This document shows, in pieces, positions 7,640 through 17,778 of a stretch of 64,000 bases of DNA. Both the position numbers and the translations under genes were made by a program. Each line of letters opens with the position of its first letter. Within the stretch, counting starts at the first letter, position 1. The stretch comes from an uncultured Clostridia bacterium (GTDB lineage Bacteria > Bacillota > Clostridia > TANB77 > CAG-508). The notes below the pieces were generated by a model. That model did no database searches, was not told where the DNA came from, and saw only the letters and a list, made by a program, of their open reading frames with translations. The stretch lies in NCBI GenBank assembly GCA_934154445.1, contig CAKPGC010000001.1, positions 21,787-85,786 of the forward strand, written 5' to 3'.

Positions 7640-7925
7640 CCTTTATTCTTTTTTTAAGATAGATTATTAGTTTTAAAAAAACACACTCCTATAGATTAAA
7701 AAATCTATAGGAGTGCTTCTATTACACGGTTCCATCCTAATTTTTACTCAATTATAAGACTATAACGCATCTTACACGTTTGGTTTATTCACCAAAAACT
7801 TGAAGAGTTAGTTTTTCAAATATGTTTTCTTGAATTAGCTTTCAGCCACGGCTATTTCTCTCTTTTTAGTAACCTTTATTTTACTTTTTCTCTTACTTGC
7901 CTTTTATTATAAACTAATTATAATT
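7640..7925 (-). promoter_or_regulatory. T-box leader (tRNA-Thr sensing) upstream of thrS
   Basis: minus-sense T-box motif AAATTAGGATGGAACCGTG at 7726-7744, followed by terminator hairpin cactcctatagatt/aatctataggagtg at 7684-7716; candidate ACU specifier in Stem I. Confidence 0.75.
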
Positions 7926-7977: not shown

Positions 7978-8181
7978 TCAAATATTAACAATACTAATAT
8001 TATTTATTGTTTCTTCTATTTTATTCTTGCTATAATTATCTAATGCACTTGTTGACTCGTCAAATAATATAATTGATGTATCTATTAGTATTGCTCTTGC
8101 TATCGCAATCCTTTGTTTTTGACCAACTGAAATATTATTATTATTTTCATTTACCATTAATAAATTATCCTTTATGCTCAC
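7978..8181 (-). pseudogene. remnant of ABC transporter ATP-binding domain (signature motif to Walker B region only)
   Basis: 67 aa ORF with ISVGQKQRIAIARAIL and IILFDESTSALD but no Walker A or transmembrane part. Confidence 0.55.
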
Positions 8182-8282
8182 ATTAAATAAAAAATCTTAT
8201 CCAATTTCAATGGATATACTGAAAATTTTGTTATTTTGTGGTATTATATACTTGAAATTACCAATATTAAAGGAGCAATATA

Positions 8283-8726
8283 ATGAATAACAAATATTAT
8301 TTTAAAAATGATACTAAATTAACAAATTATTTTTTGTGTGATGTTATAATAGATGGACTAAGATATTCTTCAAGCGAGGCGGCATATCATTCACAAAAAT
8401 TTTTAGACGAAGATATAAAGAAATTGATGACAAAACTTACACCCGACGAATCAAAAAATGTTAGTAGAGAATTATCAAGATTTATACGAGATGATTGGGA
8501 GAATGTCAAATATAGTTTAATGAAGAAAGTAGTGCTTGAAAAATTCAAACAAAATCCTGAATGTTTAAAAGAATTGTTAGACACAAGAGATATGGAATTA
8601 ATAGAAGATACAACAGGTTGGCACGATAATATATGGGGAAAATGTATGTGTGATGATTGCAAAGATTTAGAACATAAAAATTTATTAGGTAAAATTTTAA
8701 TGGAAGTAAGAGAAGAATTGAAATAA
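8283..8726 (+). CDS. NADAR (YbiA-like, DUF1768) family protein
   Basis: 147 aa; aligns with E. coli YbiA core (SSSEAAYHSQKFLDE; WG..C; LLGKILMEVREEL); RBS aaaggag. Confidence 0.7.
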   Translation: MNNKYYFKNDTKLTNYFLCDVIIDGLRYSSSEAAYHSQKFLDEDIKKLMTKLTPDESKNVSRELSRFIRDDWENVKYSLMKKVVLEKFKQNPECLKELLDTRDMELIEDTTGWHDNIWGKCMCDDCKDLEHKNLLGKILMEVREELK

Positions 8727-8837
8727 CATTTTTAAAGAGTAAAACAACGGAATTGATTTTAGCATAAGTTTTTAAAAATGTATACTTAGAAATTGCAATT
8801 AAACTAAATTTTATAAATCAATATAAAACGATACTTC

Positions 8838-8866
8838 TTGCAAAATTATGTTAATTATGCTATACT
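8838..8866 (+). promoter_or_regulatory. candidate sigma-A promoter (TTGCAA-17-TATACT) for zinc-ribbon ORF
   Basis: hexamers with 17-nt spacer about 70 nt upstream of ATG at 8938. Confidence 0.4.
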
Positions 8867-8937
8867 ATTTATGATATTTCGGTATTGTAGAAAATCCCAC
8901 ATAATAATTTATGCTAATTAGCAAGGAGGAAATCAAC

Positions 8938-9369
8938 ATGAAAGTTTATGCATGCGCTATTTGCGGAAAAGAACATGTAAAGTTATGGCGTCCTTATATG
9001 AGCACCGAACCGCTTATCTGTGCAACATGTGCAGAAGAACGGCAAAGCCCAAGAGAGTACAATGAATGTACTTGGGAAGAAAAATCTGACCTTTATATAG
9101 GAACTCCTACTGGAAAGAAACTTCCGCTTGCCAAGTGGGAAGTCAATGAAAAAGGTAAAATTCCTTCATATCATGGACCCGGTCCAGAAGGACTGCCTAT
9201 GAGAATGACGGACCAACTTATCGTTAACCTTAAGGATGTCTCTAAATCATATTCATCTGGTGAATCAATTTTGATTCCAGCTGTGCCTGATGAAAATGGA
9301 GATTTTTGGGGATATACTTCTGTACCTAAAGAACGTTGTAACTGGTGGGAAGAATTACCGTCAAGATAA
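8938..9369 (+). CDS. hypothetical zinc-ribbon protein (CxxC-x19-CxxC), GC-rich relative to surroundings
   Basis: start chosen at MKVYACAICGK with RBS aggagg 8 nt upstream (ORF track starts earlier at 8911); about 40% GC versus about 26% locally. Confidence 0.5.
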   Translation: MKVYACAICGKEHVKLWRPYMSTEPLICATCAEERQSPREYNECTWEEKSDLYIGTPTGKKLPLAKWEVNEKGKIPSYHGPGPEGLPMRMTDQLIVNLKDVSKSYSSGESILIPAVPDENGDFWGYTSVPKERCNWWEELPSR

Positions 9370-9383
9370 AACCGGTAATGTCA

Positions 9384-9419
9384 AAAGAGTCTAGAAAATT
9401 CTAGACTCTTTTGATTTTA
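9384..9419 (+). terminator. rho-independent terminator after zinc-ribbon ORF
   Basis: perfect stem agagtctaga/tctagactct with 4-nt loop, followed by TTTGATTTT. Confidence 0.8.
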
Positions 9420-9590
9420 TACTATTTCAAATTATTATAAATATCAGCTAAAACTTCATAAACAAAATCTCTTTGTTCTTTTTCAGTCATTTCCATTACT
9501 TGTGTAGACATTAAAAATAAATGTCTATATTCAAGAAAATTTATCACTCCATTCTAGAAATAGAACTTTTAAAGTTTTATATAAAATAAA

Positions 9591-9618
9591 AACTTACGAA
9601 CTTTTAAGTCCGTAAGTT
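9591..9618 (-). terminator. terminator hairpin following tRNA-Gly pair
   Basis: aacttacgaa-cttttaag-tccgtaagtt with U-run on the minus-sense side. Confidence 0.5.
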
Positions 9619-9627
9619 GATTTCAAA

Positions 9628-9701
<74 letters not shown>

Positions 9702-9745
9702 ATATATAAAATTGATACCAGTTTTCCACATTTTATAAATATATG

Positions 9746-9819
<74 letters not shown>

Positions 9820-9827
9820 ATTGTTCC

Positions 9828-9868
9828 TGACAGTTATAAATTATAAAGTATTTTTTTATAACTGTCAA
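9828..9868. terminator. perfect 12-bp hairpin downstream of groEL (no adjacent U-tract in minus sense)
   Basis: tgacagttataa..ttataactgtca; may be groESL terminator or processing stem. Confidence 0.4.
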
Positions 9869-9928: not shown

Positions 9929-11594
<1,666 letters not shown>

Positions 11595-11638
11595 TAATTC
11601 ATCACCATTTAAAATCTCTTCTCTATATGGTAATTCCT

Positions 11639-12175: not shown

Positions 12176-12628
12176 TTAAGCAATAAGTTGTTCAATATCT
12201 ACTCTATTGTTTTCATCGTCCATTAAATAAATTTGGTCAAAAAGGCCATATTCTTCATGGACAAATCTTATTGCTTTTAAGATATTTGGTCCTTCCTCAT
12301 CAATAGTTCTTTGATCCTTTAAATAAACTCGTATCTCTGTATCACAATAATATGATTCAGGGATCAAGCTAAATTTCAGAAAGCCTATGATTTCACCATC
12401 CTTTGATGTAACTAGAAGAATGAATTTATCATCCTTTTCAACATCTCTTTGTGAAATTAAATCTGTAAGATAATTTCTTTCATCTTCTTCATTTACATTC
12501 ACAAGATTTTTTAGACACTTCATAAAAGCCTCAATATCATCAACCGATAACTCTCTGATGATTAATTCATCTTTCTGAAAAAAGAATCCTTCCTTTCCTT
12601 TGATAGTCCGTATTATTGTCTGTTCCAT
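12176..12628 (-). CDS. hypothetical protein (150 aa), possibly GNAT-like fold
   Basis: ORF with terminator directly downstream; no confident family assignment. Confidence 0.4.
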   Translation of the reverse strand: MEQTIIRTIKGKEGFFFQKDELIIRELSVDDIEAFMKCLKNLVNVNEEDERNYLTDLISQRDVEKDDKFILLVTSKDGEIIGFLKFSLIPESYYCDTEIRVYLKDQRTIDEEGPNILKAIRFVHEEYGLFDQIYLMDDENNRVDIEQLIA

Positions 12629-16381: not shown

Positions 16382-17778
16382 TTAAGTAAAACATCTATTT
16401 ATTGCTTCATTTACATCTTTGACACCTATTATATCTAATTTAAATTTTTCTTTCAACCCTTTTTTATTACTTTCTGGAATTATACATCTTTTAAATCCCA
16501 ATTTTTCAGCCTCTTTTAGTCTTTTTTCAATTAAATTAATTCTTCTTACTTCGCCTGTTAGCCCAACTTCTCCCATTATAACTGTTCCTTTTTCTATTGG
16601 AATATTTTTATAACTTGAAGCAGTTACCATTAGAATTCCTAAGTCAATTGATGGTTCATTTATCTTTAATCCTCCTGCTACATTCAAGTAAACATCTTGT
16701 GTTCCCAAATTCATTCCTGCTCTTTTCTCTAAAACAGCAATTAAAAGTGCTAATCTATTATAATCAATTCCATTAGCTGTTCTTTTTGGAAATCCAAATA
16801 CACTTTGAGTTGTTAATGCTTGTAATTCTACTAACATGGTTCTAGTTCCTTCCATACAAGCTACTATACAAGAACCAGGTGGATTATCTTCTCTTTCTGA
16901 AATTAATATATCTGAAGGATTAGTTATTTCACCCATTCCTTCTCCTCTCATTTCAAACATACCAATTTCATTTGTAGAACCAAATCTATTCTTTACTCCT
17001 CTTAAAATTCTATACGAAAAATATCTTTCTCCCTCCAAATAAAGTACAGTGTCTACCATGTGTTCTAATACCCTTGGACCTGCTATATTTCCATCTTTTG
17101 TAACATGACCAATTATAATTGTTGTAATATTTCTTGATTTACATACTCTCATTATTTGAGAAGTAATTTCCCTAACTTGACTCACACTTCCGTGCTGCTG
17201 CTGAAATTTCTTCAGAATACATTGTTTGAATTGAATCTATTATAACTAACTTAGGGTTTAATTCTATTATATTTTTATTGACTATATCAATATCAGTTTC
17301 TCCTAAAAATAAAATATCATCATTATTAATTCCGTAATCTATCAGATCTCAATTTAATTTGTTCTGCAGACTCTTCTCCTGAGACATATAAGACTTTACC
17401 TTCTCCTTTGACTTTATCACATAATTGTAGAATCAATGTAGATTTTCCAATTCCTGGTTCACCACCAAGTAAAGTTAGTGAACCTTTCACCAAACCTCCA
17501 CCTAGTACTCTGTCTAACTCACCAAAGCCTGTGGAAATTCTTATTGTTTCTTTTGCCTCATAAGAATTTAATTTTTGTGGTATATTATTAGAAGATTTAT
17601 CAGATTTTAATGCACTATTCTTGCTTTCAATGATTTTTTGTTCAAAAAATGTATTCCAGCTACCACATGCAGGACATTTTCCTAACCATTTTCCTGATTC
17701 GTATCCACATTCATTACATACAAAAATTGTCTTGTTTTTTGCCATTTTTACCTCCCTATCCGAAAAGGACATTAACAA
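16382..17778 (-). pseudogene. radA: DNA repair protein RadA/Sms interrupted by two +1 frameshifts
   Basis: N-terminal piece (zinc finger CNECGYESGKW..CPACGSWNTF, Walker A GGEPGIGKST) and C-terminal Lon-like piece in different frames; connecting LGINNDDILFLGETDIDIV..KLVIIDSIQTMYSEEISAAA readable in a third frame; each shift is an extra C before GGA. Confidence 0.8.

What the first reader, a model, noticed from the sequence alone, without database searches (positions are those of the whole stretch)
7978..9420. tRNA-adjacent islet: ABC ATPase remnant, NADAR-family gene and a GC-rich zinc-ribbon ORF
Between the thrS T-box leader and the tandem tRNA-Gly genes lie three things. First, a 67-aa remnant of an ABC ATPase (signature and Walker B only). 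Second, a YbiA-like NADAR protein; this family includes N-glycosidases and ADP-ribosyl hydrolases that reverse DarT-type DNA ADP-ribosylation. Third, a 143-aa CxxC..CxxC protein whose gene is about 40% GC in a roughly 26% GC background, with its own consensus promoter and a strong terminator. The composition shift and tRNA proximity suggest horizontally acquired cargo. The NADAR plus zinc-ribbon pair could be a small toxin-antidote or DNA-modification-reversal module.
Basis: partly seen in the sequence, partly recalled or inferred. Interest (0 to 1): 0.5.

Follow-up and report, generated by a model that had tools for sequence, protein, structure and literature searches.

The report
Decayed mobile-element remnant beside tRNA-Gly
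The three neighbouring pieces are real but are not one system. The GC-rich zinc-ribbon gene is leftover cargo of a small mobile element that inserted at the end of a tRNA-Gly gene. The NADAR gene and the ABC stub are unrelated neighbours that come and go independently of it.

Summary

The horizontal-transfer idea holds for the zinc-ribbon gene (ZnR) only. Contigs of the same species (97-100% nt) show five layouts:
- both genes present (the window)
- neither gene, which is the empty site
- ZnR without NADAR, in seven samples
- two layouts with extra inserts

ZnR-only and empty-site contigs differ by a ~0.94-kb segment. It is bounded by ~58-nt direct repeats made of the tRNA-Gly terminator hairpin plus TGGAGC, the tRNA's 3' end.

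The 41-codon ORF after ZnR is a stub of a gene that follows the Mob_Pre relaxase in Tn4451-like mobilizable elements. In other gut Clostridia, ZnR lies inside such elements (serine recombinase, Mob_Pre, ZnR, TnpV).

ZnR travels as a ~600-bp promoter-leader-ORF-terminator cassette, 91% nt identical in a MAG filed as a separate species. It has foreign codon usage; NADAR's is native.

None of 65 ZnR loci or 5 NADAR loci pairs the two genes, and ZnR has no ADP-ribosyltransferase fold. The toxin-antidote reading is not supported.

ZnR belongs to an unnamed family with a confident predicted fold and no match among solved or viral structures. Its function is unknown.

The parts
7706..7906 (-). thrS T-box leader. 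This is the chromosomal flank, not part of the variable segment.
   Evidence: Rfam RF00230 scores 55.9 bits, E 2e-10, below the gathering score of 93. Its terminator hairpin is at 7683..7716. It is present in all strain variants.
7978..8181 (-). Pseudogene stub of an ABC exporter ATPase. It keeps the signature motif and Walker B; the 5' ~88% of the gene is lost.
   Evidence: It matches Pfam ABC_tran profile positions 102-137 of 137 only. It aligns to residues ~470-640 of MsbA/HlyB-type exporters. It is 85% nt and 80% aa identical to a full-length 577-aa ABC gene in L023. Only its last 27 nt survive in variants V2 and V3.
8283..8726 (+). Stand-alone YbiA-family NADAR gene with native-like composition. 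It lies outside the ZnR element.
   Evidence: PF08719 scores 101 bits and TIGR02464 scores 89.5 bits against a cut-off of 73.7. It aligns to E. coli YbiA (2b3w) at E 9e-15, with LIED matching LVEH. Its GC3 z-score is 0.8. Orthologues at 76-81% identity lie in other contexts.
8756..9627 (.). Remnant of an integrase-less mobile segment inserted at the 3' end of tRNA-Gly. In the window its left att copy and 64 nt of its left end are deleted.
   Evidence: In L095-L101 the same DNA (window 8756 onward) is preceded by 64 nt and a second copy of the terminator+TGGAGC repeat. L039 has the empty site. L051 keeps the left repeat between NADAR and ZnR.
8825..9418 (+). Self-contained ZnR expression cassette: promoter, ~65-nt leader, ORF and terminator.
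   Evidence: It is 90.9% nt identical over exactly this span to L004, a MAG filed as a separate species, with no homology outside it. The promoter and leader are conserved in 9-28 loci.
8838..8866 (+). Extended -10 promoter TTGCAA-17-TGcTATACT.
   Evidence: The scan matches 9 of 12 positions plus TG. TTG and TGnTATAnT are conserved across species.
8873..8886 (+). Leader hairpin 1 (GAUAU-UUCG-GUAUU), near the presumed 5' end of the transcript.
   Evidence: Covariation AU to GC and CG to UA/UG is seen across 28 leaders. The structure is energetically weak.
8912..8923 (+). Perfect 12-bp palindrome TGCTAATTAGCA abutting the Shine-Dalgarno AAGGAGG. It is a candidate operator or a small hairpin.
   Evidence: It occurs once in the window. 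The alternative clade has TGTCAATTGACA, and pairs 85/93 and 86/92 switch together, CG:12/UA:10 and UA:14/CG:10.
8938..9369 (+). ZnR: a 143-aa zinc-ribbon protein of an unnamed family, carried as cargo.
9380..9415 (+). Intrinsic terminator of ZnR.
   Evidence: 16-pair stem followed by a T-run.
9422..9547 (-). 41-codon stub: the C-terminal part of the 'p95' gene that follows the Mob_Pre relaxase in Tn4451-like mobilizable elements.
   Evidence: It is 57.5% identical over 40 aa to L009:614-868 (56% in the alignment), which aligns with the p95 genes beside Mob_Pre in L013, L048 and L009.
9577..9633 (-). att-like repeat: the tRNA-Gly terminator hairpin (9591..9618) plus TGGAGC, the last 6 nt of the tRNA.
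   Evidence: A second copy lies left of ZnR in L051 (91% over 58 nt) and in L095-L101. An unrelated mobilizable element starts right after TGGAGC in L048. A related copy is in L029.
9628..9819 (-). Tandem tRNA-Gly(UCC) genes (9628..9701 and 9746..9819), the integration target.
   Evidence: ARAGORN and Rfam both call them. The empty-site contig L039 has one copy.

Best explanation
The region is a patchwork at a tRNA-Gly(UCC) integration hot spot, not a functional unit.

Inferred order of events:
1. The chromosome carried thrS, a decaying ABC exporter gene, a stand-alone YbiA-type NADAR gene, the tRNA terminator and tRNA-Gly.
2. A small integrative mobilizable element related to Tn4451-like elements (Mob_Pre relaxase, p95, TnpV) integrated at the tRNA's 3' end. 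This duplicated a ~58-nt att segment made of the terminator hairpin plus TGGAGC.
3. The element decayed to under 1 kb. What survives is one intact cargo cassette (ZnR with its own promoter, leader and terminator) and a 41-codon p95 stub.
4. In the window strain a further ~190-bp deletion removed the left att copy, so ZnR now abuts NADAR.

Shown directly:
- the strain variants and the empty site
- the repeats
- the p95 homology
- ZnR inside intact elements elsewhere
- the cassette boundaries
- the foreign codon usage of ZnR

Inferred:
- the order of events
- which recombinase did the integration
- what ZnR does

My best guess for ZnR is a zinc-stabilised, mildly acidic binding protein that benefits the element, for example in counter-defence, exclusion or regulation. 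It is expressed like a moron, and I do not think it is an enzyme. This part is weakly supported.
For: **Strain variants of the same species (97-100% nt)**
- L038, L093 and L094 have the window's layout.
- L039 lacks window 8005..9576 and has one tRNA-Gly.
- L095-L101, from seven samples, have thrS, the 27-nt ABC tip, an att copy, 64 nt, then ZnR, the p95 stub, att and tRNA-Gly x2, with no NADAR.
- L051 keeps the att copy between NADAR and ZnR.
- L048 has a TnpV/AbiD/Mob_Pre element starting right after TGGAGC.

**Link to mobile elements**
- orf41 is a stub of p95.
- L009 has a serine recombinase, Mob_Pre, ZnR and TnpV in a row, and L013 has ZnR, TnpV, Mob_Pre and p95.
- Six to eight human-gut contigs carry the same element with ZnR in the cargo slot; the backbone is 85-100% identical between samples.

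**The cassette**
- It is 90.9% nt identical to L004 over window 8825..9418 only.
- The promoter and leader are conserved.

**Composition**
- ZnR GC3 has z 4.4 and 12.6% of its codons are host-rare; NADAR has z 0.8.
- The homologue is GC-richer than its neighbours in nearly all low-GC loci.

**tRNA association**
- In 10 of 36 loci a tRNA lies within ~3 kb downstream of ZnR and convergent with it. tRNA-Gly(UCC) recurs in several species.

**Framework**
- Tandem accretion and decay of mobilizable elements at tRNA 3' ends is described in PMC5704250.
Against: - No integrase or relaxase is left in the window, so the recombinase that made the insertion is not identified.
- The Tn4451-type serine recombinase is reported to have low site specificity (PMC5704250), whereas the observed site is a tRNA 3' end. 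That is more typical of tyrosine integrases, so the element may be a mosaic.
- No att repeats were found around ZnR in the ten other-species loci that have a downstream tRNA.
- L023 has a full ABC pair next to its own ZnR, and its ABC2 is 85% nt identical to the window stub. The ABC-ZnR neighbourhood could therefore be older than I infer.
- All strain variants are metagenome contigs, so mis-assembly at repeats is possible. Seven independent samples giving the same junction argues against it.
- The function proposed for ZnR has no direct evidence.
Confidence: 0.8

Rival explanations
1. One reading: NADAR and ZnR form a two-gene toxin-antidote or DNA-modification-reversal module, analogous to DarT1-NADAR or YarT-YbiA. 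ZnR would be the modifying toxin and NADAR the reversing hydrolase.
For: - The two genes are adjacent and on the same strand, 212 bp apart.
- A YbiA-upstream-of-toxin operon, YbiA-YarT, exists in myxobacteria (PMC11125620).
- Weak nucleotide-metabolism hints come from distant ZnR relatives. One is fused to a nucleoside 2-deoxyribosyltransferase-like domain (P0256). One phage locus type has the short relative directly after NAMPT and NMNAT-Nudix genes (L066/L085).
Against: - ZnR occurs without NADAR in seven conspecific contigs.
- NADAR is absent near ZnR in 65 other loci, and ZnR is absent near five NADAR orthologues.
- An att repeat separates the two genes in L051.
- Each gene has its own promoter, and ZnR has its own terminator.
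- ZnR gives no Pfam or PADLOC hit to DarT or any ART.
- The nucleotide-metabolism hints are single cases among 1059 relatives and 102 phage neighbours.
Confidence: 0.03
2. ZnR is an ordinary vertically inherited chromosomal gene, and its GC excess simply reflects an amino-acid composition rich in Gly, Pro, Trp, Cys and Ala.
For: - About 60% of the GC excess follows from the amino-acid sequence: 0.356 expected from amino acids and host codon usage, against a 0.273 background.
- Many homologue loci have housekeeping neighbours and no mobile-element genes.
- Purifying selection acts on the gene.
Against: - The synonymous sites are atypical too: GC3 is 0.268 against 0.16 expected, the largest deviation in the window.
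- The gene is absent from a conspecific contig and bounded by repeats in others.
- No synteny is shared across species.
- At the syntenic tRNA-Gly locus of L029, pyrG is 80% nt identical but the ZnR allele is only 49% aa identical. A MAG filed as a separate species has a 91% nt identical cassette.
Confidence: 0.05
3. ZnR is a small autoregulatory nucleic-acid-binding protein. It would bind the 12-bp palindrome in its own leader and perhaps regulate the element or host genes.
For: - A perfect palindrome, TGCTAATTAGCA, lies directly 5' of the Shine-Dalgarno sequence.
- The two protein clades carry TGCTAATTAGCA and TGTCAATTGACA respectively, and symmetry is kept in at least 5 variants.
- The leader has no stable RNA fold (z 0.31), which favours a DNA-level or protein-bound site.
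- The N-terminal 4-Cys ribbon is a common nucleic-acid-binding module.
Against: - The protein is mildly acidic: pI 5.5 for the window copy, family median 5.3-5.7.
- It has no HTH or other known DNA-binding domain.
- The palindrome is unique in the 64-kb window.
- The site lies ~45 nt downstream of the -10 element, which is unusual for a repressor operator.
- No binding has been tested.
Confidence: 0.15
4. The GC-rich stretch encodes a structured RNA, as GC islands in AT-rich genomes often do, and the ORF is incidental.
For: A GC peak of 0.38-0.445 stands in a 0.22-0.33 background.
Against: - Homologues at 39-85% aa identity keep the same length, the four Cys and the conserved motifs.
- pN/pS is 0.21-0.46.
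- The AF2 model has pLDDT 94.
- Rfam gives no relevant hit at E <= 1.
- A strong Shine-Dalgarno sequence lies 8 nt before the ATG.
Confidence: 0.02

Closest known systems
Decayed integrative mobilizable elements (IMEs and cis-mobilizable remnants) accreted at tRNA 3' ends, as reviewed in PMC5704250
   Same: - Insertion is at the 3' end of a tRNA gene.
- Direct att repeats include the tRNA end.
- An empty site exists in a conspecific contig.
- Unrelated elements pile up in tandem at the same site (L048, L051).
- Recombinase and relaxase have been lost, leaving cargo.
   Different: - The remnant is very small, under 1 kb, with a single intact gene.
- The repeat consists mostly of the terminator downstream of the tRNA plus only 6 nt of the tRNA itself.
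- In the window the left repeat is gone.
Tn4451/Tn4453-type mobilizable transposons of Clostridia (TnpX serine recombinase, TnpV, TnpZ Mob/Pre, with a cargo gene such as catP)
   Same: In L009, L108, L109 and L111, ZnR sits between a Mob_Pre relaxase and TnpV, next to a large serine recombinase. This is the position and gene set typical of this family.
   Different: - The cargo is ZnR, not a resistance gene.
- The gene order differs from the Tn4451 order as I recall it.
- The window retains only a stub of the p95 gene.
- tRNA-end targeting is not a known property of TnpX. PMC5704250 reports low site specificity.
YbiA-YarT and DarT1-NADAR toxin-antitoxin systems (PMC11125620, PMC11543638)
   Same: A small YbiA-fold NADAR gene lies directly upstream of a small uncharacterised ORF. 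NADARs remove ADP-ribose from guanine in DNA.
   Different: - The downstream protein has no ART fold or H-Y-E motif.
- The two genes are not co-inherited.
- The NADAR is of the YbiA (Glu) type, not the DarT1-linked BC4488 (Asp) type.
Single-gene accessory cassettes on mobile elements, comparable to phage morons (the comparison rests on general knowledge; no paper was read for it)
   Same: One gene is flanked by its own promoter and its own intrinsic terminator. Its composition differs from the surrounding element. It is found in many different contexts.
   Different: It is carried by mobilizable elements and chromosomes of gut Clostridia rather than by prophages. Only the ~100-aa short relatives are in viral contigs.
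Pfam DUF7573 (PF24458) and ZZ/RING-like treble-clef zinc fingers
   Different: - The window score is below the Pfam cut-off of 30.2.
- There is one zinc site, not the two cross-braced sites of ZZ and RING.
- The remaining 100 residues have no match.

Membership tests
NADAR superfamily, YbiA subfamily | Match to the NADAR domain model above the curated cut-off | tested here: met
   PF08719 scores 101.3 bits against 35.1. TIGR02464 scores 89.5 bits against 73.7.
NADAR superfamily, YbiA subfamily | Glutamate in the last beta-strand (Asp in BC4488/DarT1-linked NADARs, His in phage gp30.3), and a bare YbiA domain without an N-terminal extension (PMC11125620) | tested here: met
   The alignment to E. 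coli YbiA (2b3w) places window ELIEDT on KLVEHT, so a Glu is kept. At 147 aa there is no extension. Identifying this Glu as the catalytic residue is my inference from the paper's description, not a structural test.
DarT1-NADAR toxin-antitoxin | An adjacent DarT ADP-ribosyltransferase gene | tested here: not met
   The neighbours are the ABC stub and ZnR. Neither matches DarT or any ART in Pfam or PADLOC.
YbiA-YarT toxin-antitoxin | The downstream partner has an ART fold with an H-Y-E/D motif | tested here: not met
YbiA-YarT toxin-antitoxin | The two genes are co-inherited | tested here: not met
   ZnR occurs without NADAR in L095-L101. The two genes do not co-occur in 65 ZnR loci or 5 NADAR loci.
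NADAR anti-phage protein (NCBIfam NF053876, DS32_2) | Score above the equivalog cut-off | tested here: not met
   70.6 bits against a cut-off of 240. The PADLOC candidate PDC-M42C matches at E 1e-15, but this is only domain-level similarity.
Functional ABC transporter ATPase | A complete nucleotide-binding domain with Walker A, Q-loop, signature, Walker B and H-loop | tested here: not met
   Only profile positions 102-137 of 137 are present. The full-length homologue in L023 is 577 aa.
Integrative mobilizable element at a tRNA gene | Direct att repeats that include the tRNA 3' end, and an empty site in a relative | tested here: met
   Repeats flank ZnR in L095-L101 and L051, and L039 has the empty site. 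In the window itself only the right repeat remains.
Integrative mobilizable element at a tRNA gene | Its own integrase or recombinase and relaxase/oriT | tested here: not met
   None lies in window 8756..9627; only a p95 stub remains. They are present next to ZnR in L009, L013, L108, L109 and L111. The window copy is therefore a decayed remnant, not an element.
Pfam DUF7573 (PF24458) | Score above the gathering threshold | tested here: not met
   18.5 bits against 30.2 for the window protein. Relative P0184 passes at 38.5 bits.
Known phage or defence protein families (PHROGs, PADLOC) | Any profile match for ZnR | tested here: not met
   There are no PHROG or PADLOC hits for ZnR or for its short relatives.

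The most novel reading that the evidence does not exclude
ZnR and its ~100-aa relatives form an undescribed, widespread family of zinc-ribbon proteins borne on mobile elements, with a fold not seen among solved or viral structures. The profile search finds 1059 cluster representatives at E <= 1e-3, including members in 30 IMG/VR viral contigs, several over 200 kb. The gut-Clostridia form travels as an autonomous promoter-operator-gene-terminator cassette. It keeps GC-rich codons in 23-32% GC hosts, which suggests selection at the nucleotide level or constant re-import. Its role may be counter-defence or element-element conflict.
Probability: 0.25. Interest if true: 0.6.

Novelty: new member of a known kind. 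Interest (0 to 1): 0.33.

Why it matters
For annotating this genome, the result turns a suggestive three-gene 'module' into what it is: a pseudogene stub, a lone YbiA-type hydrolase, and a scar of mobile-element traffic at a tRNA-Gly hot spot. The scar is still polymorphic in human-gut populations.

The one part worth carrying forward is ZnR:
- It is a strongly conserved, confidently folded 'hypothetical protein'.
- It sits in the cargo slot of Tn4451-like mobilizable elements.
- It has short relatives in viral contigs, some over 200 kb.
- It has an unusual, family-wide GC excess and a conserved palindromic leader.

Cargo genes of this kind are where new anti-defence or exclusion functions are usually found. 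It is therefore a reasonable, though not urgent, candidate for experimental work.

Tried and rejected
- **AlphaFold DB search:** the Foldseek search against afdb50 could not be run because the library was not available. 'No structural relative' therefore covers PDB and BFVD only.
- **Sequence searches for ZnR:** Pfam, NCBIfam, PHROGs, PADLOC, PDB sequences, PLSDB plasmids, INPHARED phages and IMG/VR gave nothing usable.
- **False positives:**
  - The 3694-aa hit P0154 (nine stretches) is a SEA/mucin-like repeat protein.
  - The PDB hits to MCM3 and a LIM protein are insignificant.
- **att repeats elsewhere:** I searched around ZnR in ten other-species loci that have a downstream tRNA and found none.
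- **Conserved neighbours:**
  - Clustering of ORFs and Pfam counts over 102 phage neighbours and 111 Clostridia neighbours showed no recurrent partner.
  - NADAR was absent from both sets.
- **NAD-metabolism link:** the evidence is NAMPT plus NMNAT-Nudix next to the short relative in L066/L085, and a PF15891 fusion in P0256. I rejected it as evidence because these are single cases.
- **RNA element in the leader:**
  - RNAalifold kept only a 3-pair hairpin.
  - The single-sequence fold is no better than shuffles.
  - I report it as a conserved palindrome, not as an RNA family.
- **One ancestral ABC-ZnR island:**
  - The supporting point is that ABC2 in L023 is 85% nt identical to the window stub.
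  - This is not excluded. It explains the att-bounded insertion less well.
Full report
**1. The observation**

The window is AT-rich, with GC 0.271.

- **ABC stub.** The 67-codon ORF at 7978..8181 (minus) matches only the last 36 of 137 positions of the ABC_tran profile. It aligns to residues ~470-640 of MsbA/HlyB-type exporters. It is a stub.
- **NADAR.** The ORF at 8283..8726 (plus) is a NADAR domain protein: PF08719 at 101 bits and TIGR02464 at 89.5 bits against a cut-off of 73.7.
- **ZnR.** The ORF at 8938..9369 (plus) encodes 143 aa with Cys at positions 6, 9, 28 and 31.
- **Composition.** ZnR's GC is 0.405. Of 56 long ORFs in the window it is the top outlier for both GC and GC3.
- **Signals.** An extended -10 promoter lies at 8838..8866 (TTGCAA-17-TGcTATACT, 9 of 12 positions). 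A 16-pair terminator lies at 9380..9415.

**2. ZnR is a real, conserved, unnamed protein**

- It has 114 homologue clusters. All but three are at 44-99% identity over essentially the full length.
- One cluster carries a precomputed PF24458 hit, and none has a name. Sampled NCBI members are called 'hypothetical protein [Clostridia bacterium]'.
- The four Cys, a KLWRPY motif and a C-terminal PAVP...FWGYTSVP...WWEELP motif are conserved.
- pN/pS against four homologues is 0.21-0.46.
- AlphaFold2 with the alignment gives pLDDT 94.2 and pTM 0.86.
- Foldseek against PDB and against viral models gives nothing at E <= 1e-3. The AlphaFold DB library was not available.
- A profile search of 1.84 billion representatives finds 1059 proteins at E <= 1e-3 but only 30 at E <= 1e-30.
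- Most of these hits are ~100-aa proteins that match the zinc ribbon and the C-terminal motif. Profile-profile comparison gives 99.96% probability. The window protein is therefore a long form with beta-rich insertions.
- The short form occurs in 30 IMG/VR viral contigs of 7.7-456 kb, eight of them over 200 kb. The long form occurs in none, and in no sequenced plasmid or cultured phage.

**3. The GC excess is partly amino-acid composition and partly foreign codons**

- Given ZnR's amino acids and the window's codon usage, the expected GC is 0.356. The observed value is 0.408.
- GC3 is 0.268 against 0.16 expected (z 4.4, the largest deviation in the window).
- 12.6% of its codons are host-rare, against a mean of 3.8% for other genes.
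- NADAR (z 0.8) and the ABC stub (z 0.6) look native.
- The ZnR homologue is GC-richer than its neighbours in nearly all low-GC genome loci. It is also GC-richer than the mobile-element backbone genes beside it.
- The excess is therefore a family trait, and I have not explained it fully.

**4. Conspecific contigs settle the anatomy**

Exact-protein look-ups with the window's GroES, NADAR and ZnR retrieved contigs at 97-100% nt identity. Aligning them to the window and reading the junctions gives five layouts.

| Layout | Contigs | Order of features |
|---|---|---|
| V1 | window, L038/L093, L050/L094 | thrS, ABC stub, NADAR, ZnR, orf41, terminator, tRNA-Gly x2, groEL |
| V2 | L039 | thrS, last 27 nt of the ABC stub, 32-nt filler, terminator, one tRNA-Gly, groEL (no NADAR, no ZnR) |
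| V3 | L095-L101 (seven samples) | as V2 up to ...TCAAATGGAGC, then 64 nt, then window 8756 onward (ZnR, orf41, terminator, tRNA-Gly x2) (no NADAR) |
| V4 | L048/L092 | V1 plus a TnpV/AbiD/Mob_Pre element starting directly after TGGAGC |
| V5 | L051 | V1 with a second terminator+TGGAGC copy retained between NADAR and ZnR (91% over 58 nt), and a further 1.75-kb insert before the tRNA |

- V2 and V3 differ by a ~0.94-kb segment. It is bounded by ~58-nt direct repeats made of the tRNA-Gly terminator hairpin plus the last six nucleotides of the tRNA.
- This is the signature of site-specific integration at a tRNA 3' end.
- NADAR lies outside that segment.
- In the window a ~190-bp deletion has removed the left repeat.

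**5. The inserted segment is a decayed mobilizable element**

- The 41-codon ORF at 9422..9547 (minus) is 57.5% identical over 40 aa to the C-terminus of L009:614-868. That ORF belongs to a family ('p95') that follows the Mob_Pre relaxase in L013, L048 and L009.
- In L009 the ZnR homologue lies between Mob_Pre and TnpV, next to a large serine recombinase.
- In L013 the order is ZnR, TnpV, Mob_Pre, p95.
- The metagenome scan found the same element (serine recombinase, p87, Mob_Pre, ZnR, TnpV) in six to eight human-gut contigs. Its backbone proteins are 85-100% identical between samples.
- This gene set is that of Tn4451-like elements. Accretion and decay of such elements at tRNA 3' ends is described in PMC5704250.
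- In 10 of 36 genome loci, across seven tRNA types or clusters, a tRNA lies within ~3 kb downstream of ZnR and convergent with it.
- Elsewhere in those loci there are three tRNA loci in about 324 kb, so by my estimate about one would be expected in the downstream zone.
- tRNA-Gly(UCC) recurs in several species.
- At the syntenic tRNA-Gly locus of L029, pyrG is 80% nt identical to the window but the ZnR allele is only 49% aa identical. In contrast, L004, a MAG filed as a separate species, carries a cassette 90.9% nt identical over window 8825..9418 and nothing else.

**6. The cassette**

The shared unit runs from just upstream of the -35 element to the end of the terminator. The promoter and a ~65-nt leader are conserved across species.

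The leader has two conserved elements:
- A small hairpin lies at 8873..8886.
- A perfect 12-bp palindrome, TGCTAATTAGCA (8912..8923), abuts the Shine-Dalgarno sequence. The other protein clade has TGTCAATTGACA.

Paired positions change together. 82.7% of cells are paired against 72.7% in shuffles (0 of 500 shuffles reach it), and slid controls give 20-49%. The leader as a whole does not fold better than shuffled sequence. The palindrome may therefore be a protein-binding site rather than an RNA structure. It is unique in the window.

**7. NADAR**

- It aligns to E. coli YbiA (2b3w, E 9e-15), with ELIEDT on KLVEHT.
- By the criterion in PMC11125620 (Glu in the last strand, no N-terminal extension) it belongs to the YbiA subfamily. 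It is not the DarT1-linked BC4488 subfamily.
- Orthologues at 76-81% identity in related low-GC contigs sit in different housekeeping contexts, never with ZnR. Their neighbours include a nucleoside hydrolase, a racemase and UvrB.
- Known activities of the family are N-glycosidase action on riboflavin intermediates and removal of ADP-ribose from guanine (PMC11543638, PMC11125620). Which activity applies here cannot be told from sequence.

**8. The toxin-antidote idea**

It mirrors a real system, YbiA-YarT, so it deserved a test. It fails on each defining feature:
- ZnR has no ART fold.
- The two genes are not co-inherited.
- An att repeat separates them in V5.
- Each gene has its own expression signals.

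Weak nucleotide-metabolism hints from distant relatives are single cases. One is a fusion to PF15891. The other is a phage locus with NAMPT and NMNAT-Nudix upstream.

**9. What ZnR does**

- Nothing in the sequence points to catalysis. The conserved residues are Cys, aromatic residues and Pro, plus a T-D-Q motif.
- The protein is mildly acidic, with pI 5.5.
- It has no conserved neighbour in phages or in Clostridia.

My working model is a zinc-stabilised binding protein expressed from a moron-like cassette for the benefit of the element. I hold it at low confidence. Autoregulation through the palindrome is a testable rival.

**10. Verdict**

It is partly wrong: the three pieces are not one islet, and NADAR and ZnR are not a pair.
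- The structure is an ordinary kind of thing, a decayed mobilizable element at a tRNA hot spot.
- It carries an uncharacterised but well-conserved cargo gene that may merit follow-up.

Noticed in passing
window 16382..17772 (minus strand): radA (sms) is broken by two frame changes within about 170 nt. The reading frame runs 0, then 1, then 2 through the RecA-like domain. The same split gene calls (139 aa and 256-267 aa) appear in ten independent metagenome contigs of the species (L038-L047), so it is not an assembly error in this window. It is either a pseudogene or a recoded gene.
   Followed up: partly
window 8873..8937; alignment A8 of 28 loci: The ~65-nt leader of ZnR is conserved. It has a small hairpin near the 5' end and a perfect 12-bp palindrome (TGCTAATTAGCA, or TGTCAATTGACA in the other clade) directly before the Shine-Dalgarno sequence. 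Symmetric changes keep the palindrome. There is no Rfam match and no stable overall fold.
   Followed up: partly
L048 7351..12444 (same species, sample ERZ27287155): A different mobilizable element sits at the same TGGAGC site. It carries a 2'-5' RNA ligase-like gene, a 393-aa membrane-like protein, TnpV, AbiD (PADLOC E 6e-29), Mob_Pre and p95. It also has a 144-aa cargo gene (11182..11616) that is GC-rich like ZnR (0.38) and has no family match.
   Followed up: partly
L110 5555..6977: Two ZnR paralogues sit in tandem (48% and 63% identical to the window protein). They are followed 470 nt later by a convergent tRNA-Gly(UCC).
   Followed up: no
L066 and L085 3631..6345; protein P0256: In one phage lineage the short ZnR relative overlaps the stop of a NAMPT gene, which follows an NMNAT-Nudix gene (NAD salvage). 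One cellular relative is fused to a nucleoside 2-deoxyribosyltransferase-like domain (PF15891). These are single cases, so I did not use them as evidence.
   Followed up: partly
L023 1179..5308: A full-length pair of ABC exporter genes lies directly beside that genome's ZnR. The second ABC gene is 85% nt and 80% aa identical to the window's ABC stub. This hints that an ABC-ZnR neighbourhood may predate the present layout.
   Followed up: partly
window 8640..8675 (NADAR residues 120-131): Relative to E. coli YbiA, the NADAR has a short Cys-rich replacement: KCMCDDCKDLEH in place of DGGHGKG. Its significance is unknown.
   Followed up: no
window 9840..9868 (minus strand): A perfect 12-of-12 sigma-70 consensus promoter (TTGACA-17-TATAAT) lies upstream of the tandem tRNA-Gly genes.
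   Followed up: no
window 12176..12628 (minus strand): A 150-aa ORF between groES and pyrG has no Pfam hit on record. Its GC3 (0.225) is the second highest in the window. It is conserved in all conspecific contigs.
   Followed up: no
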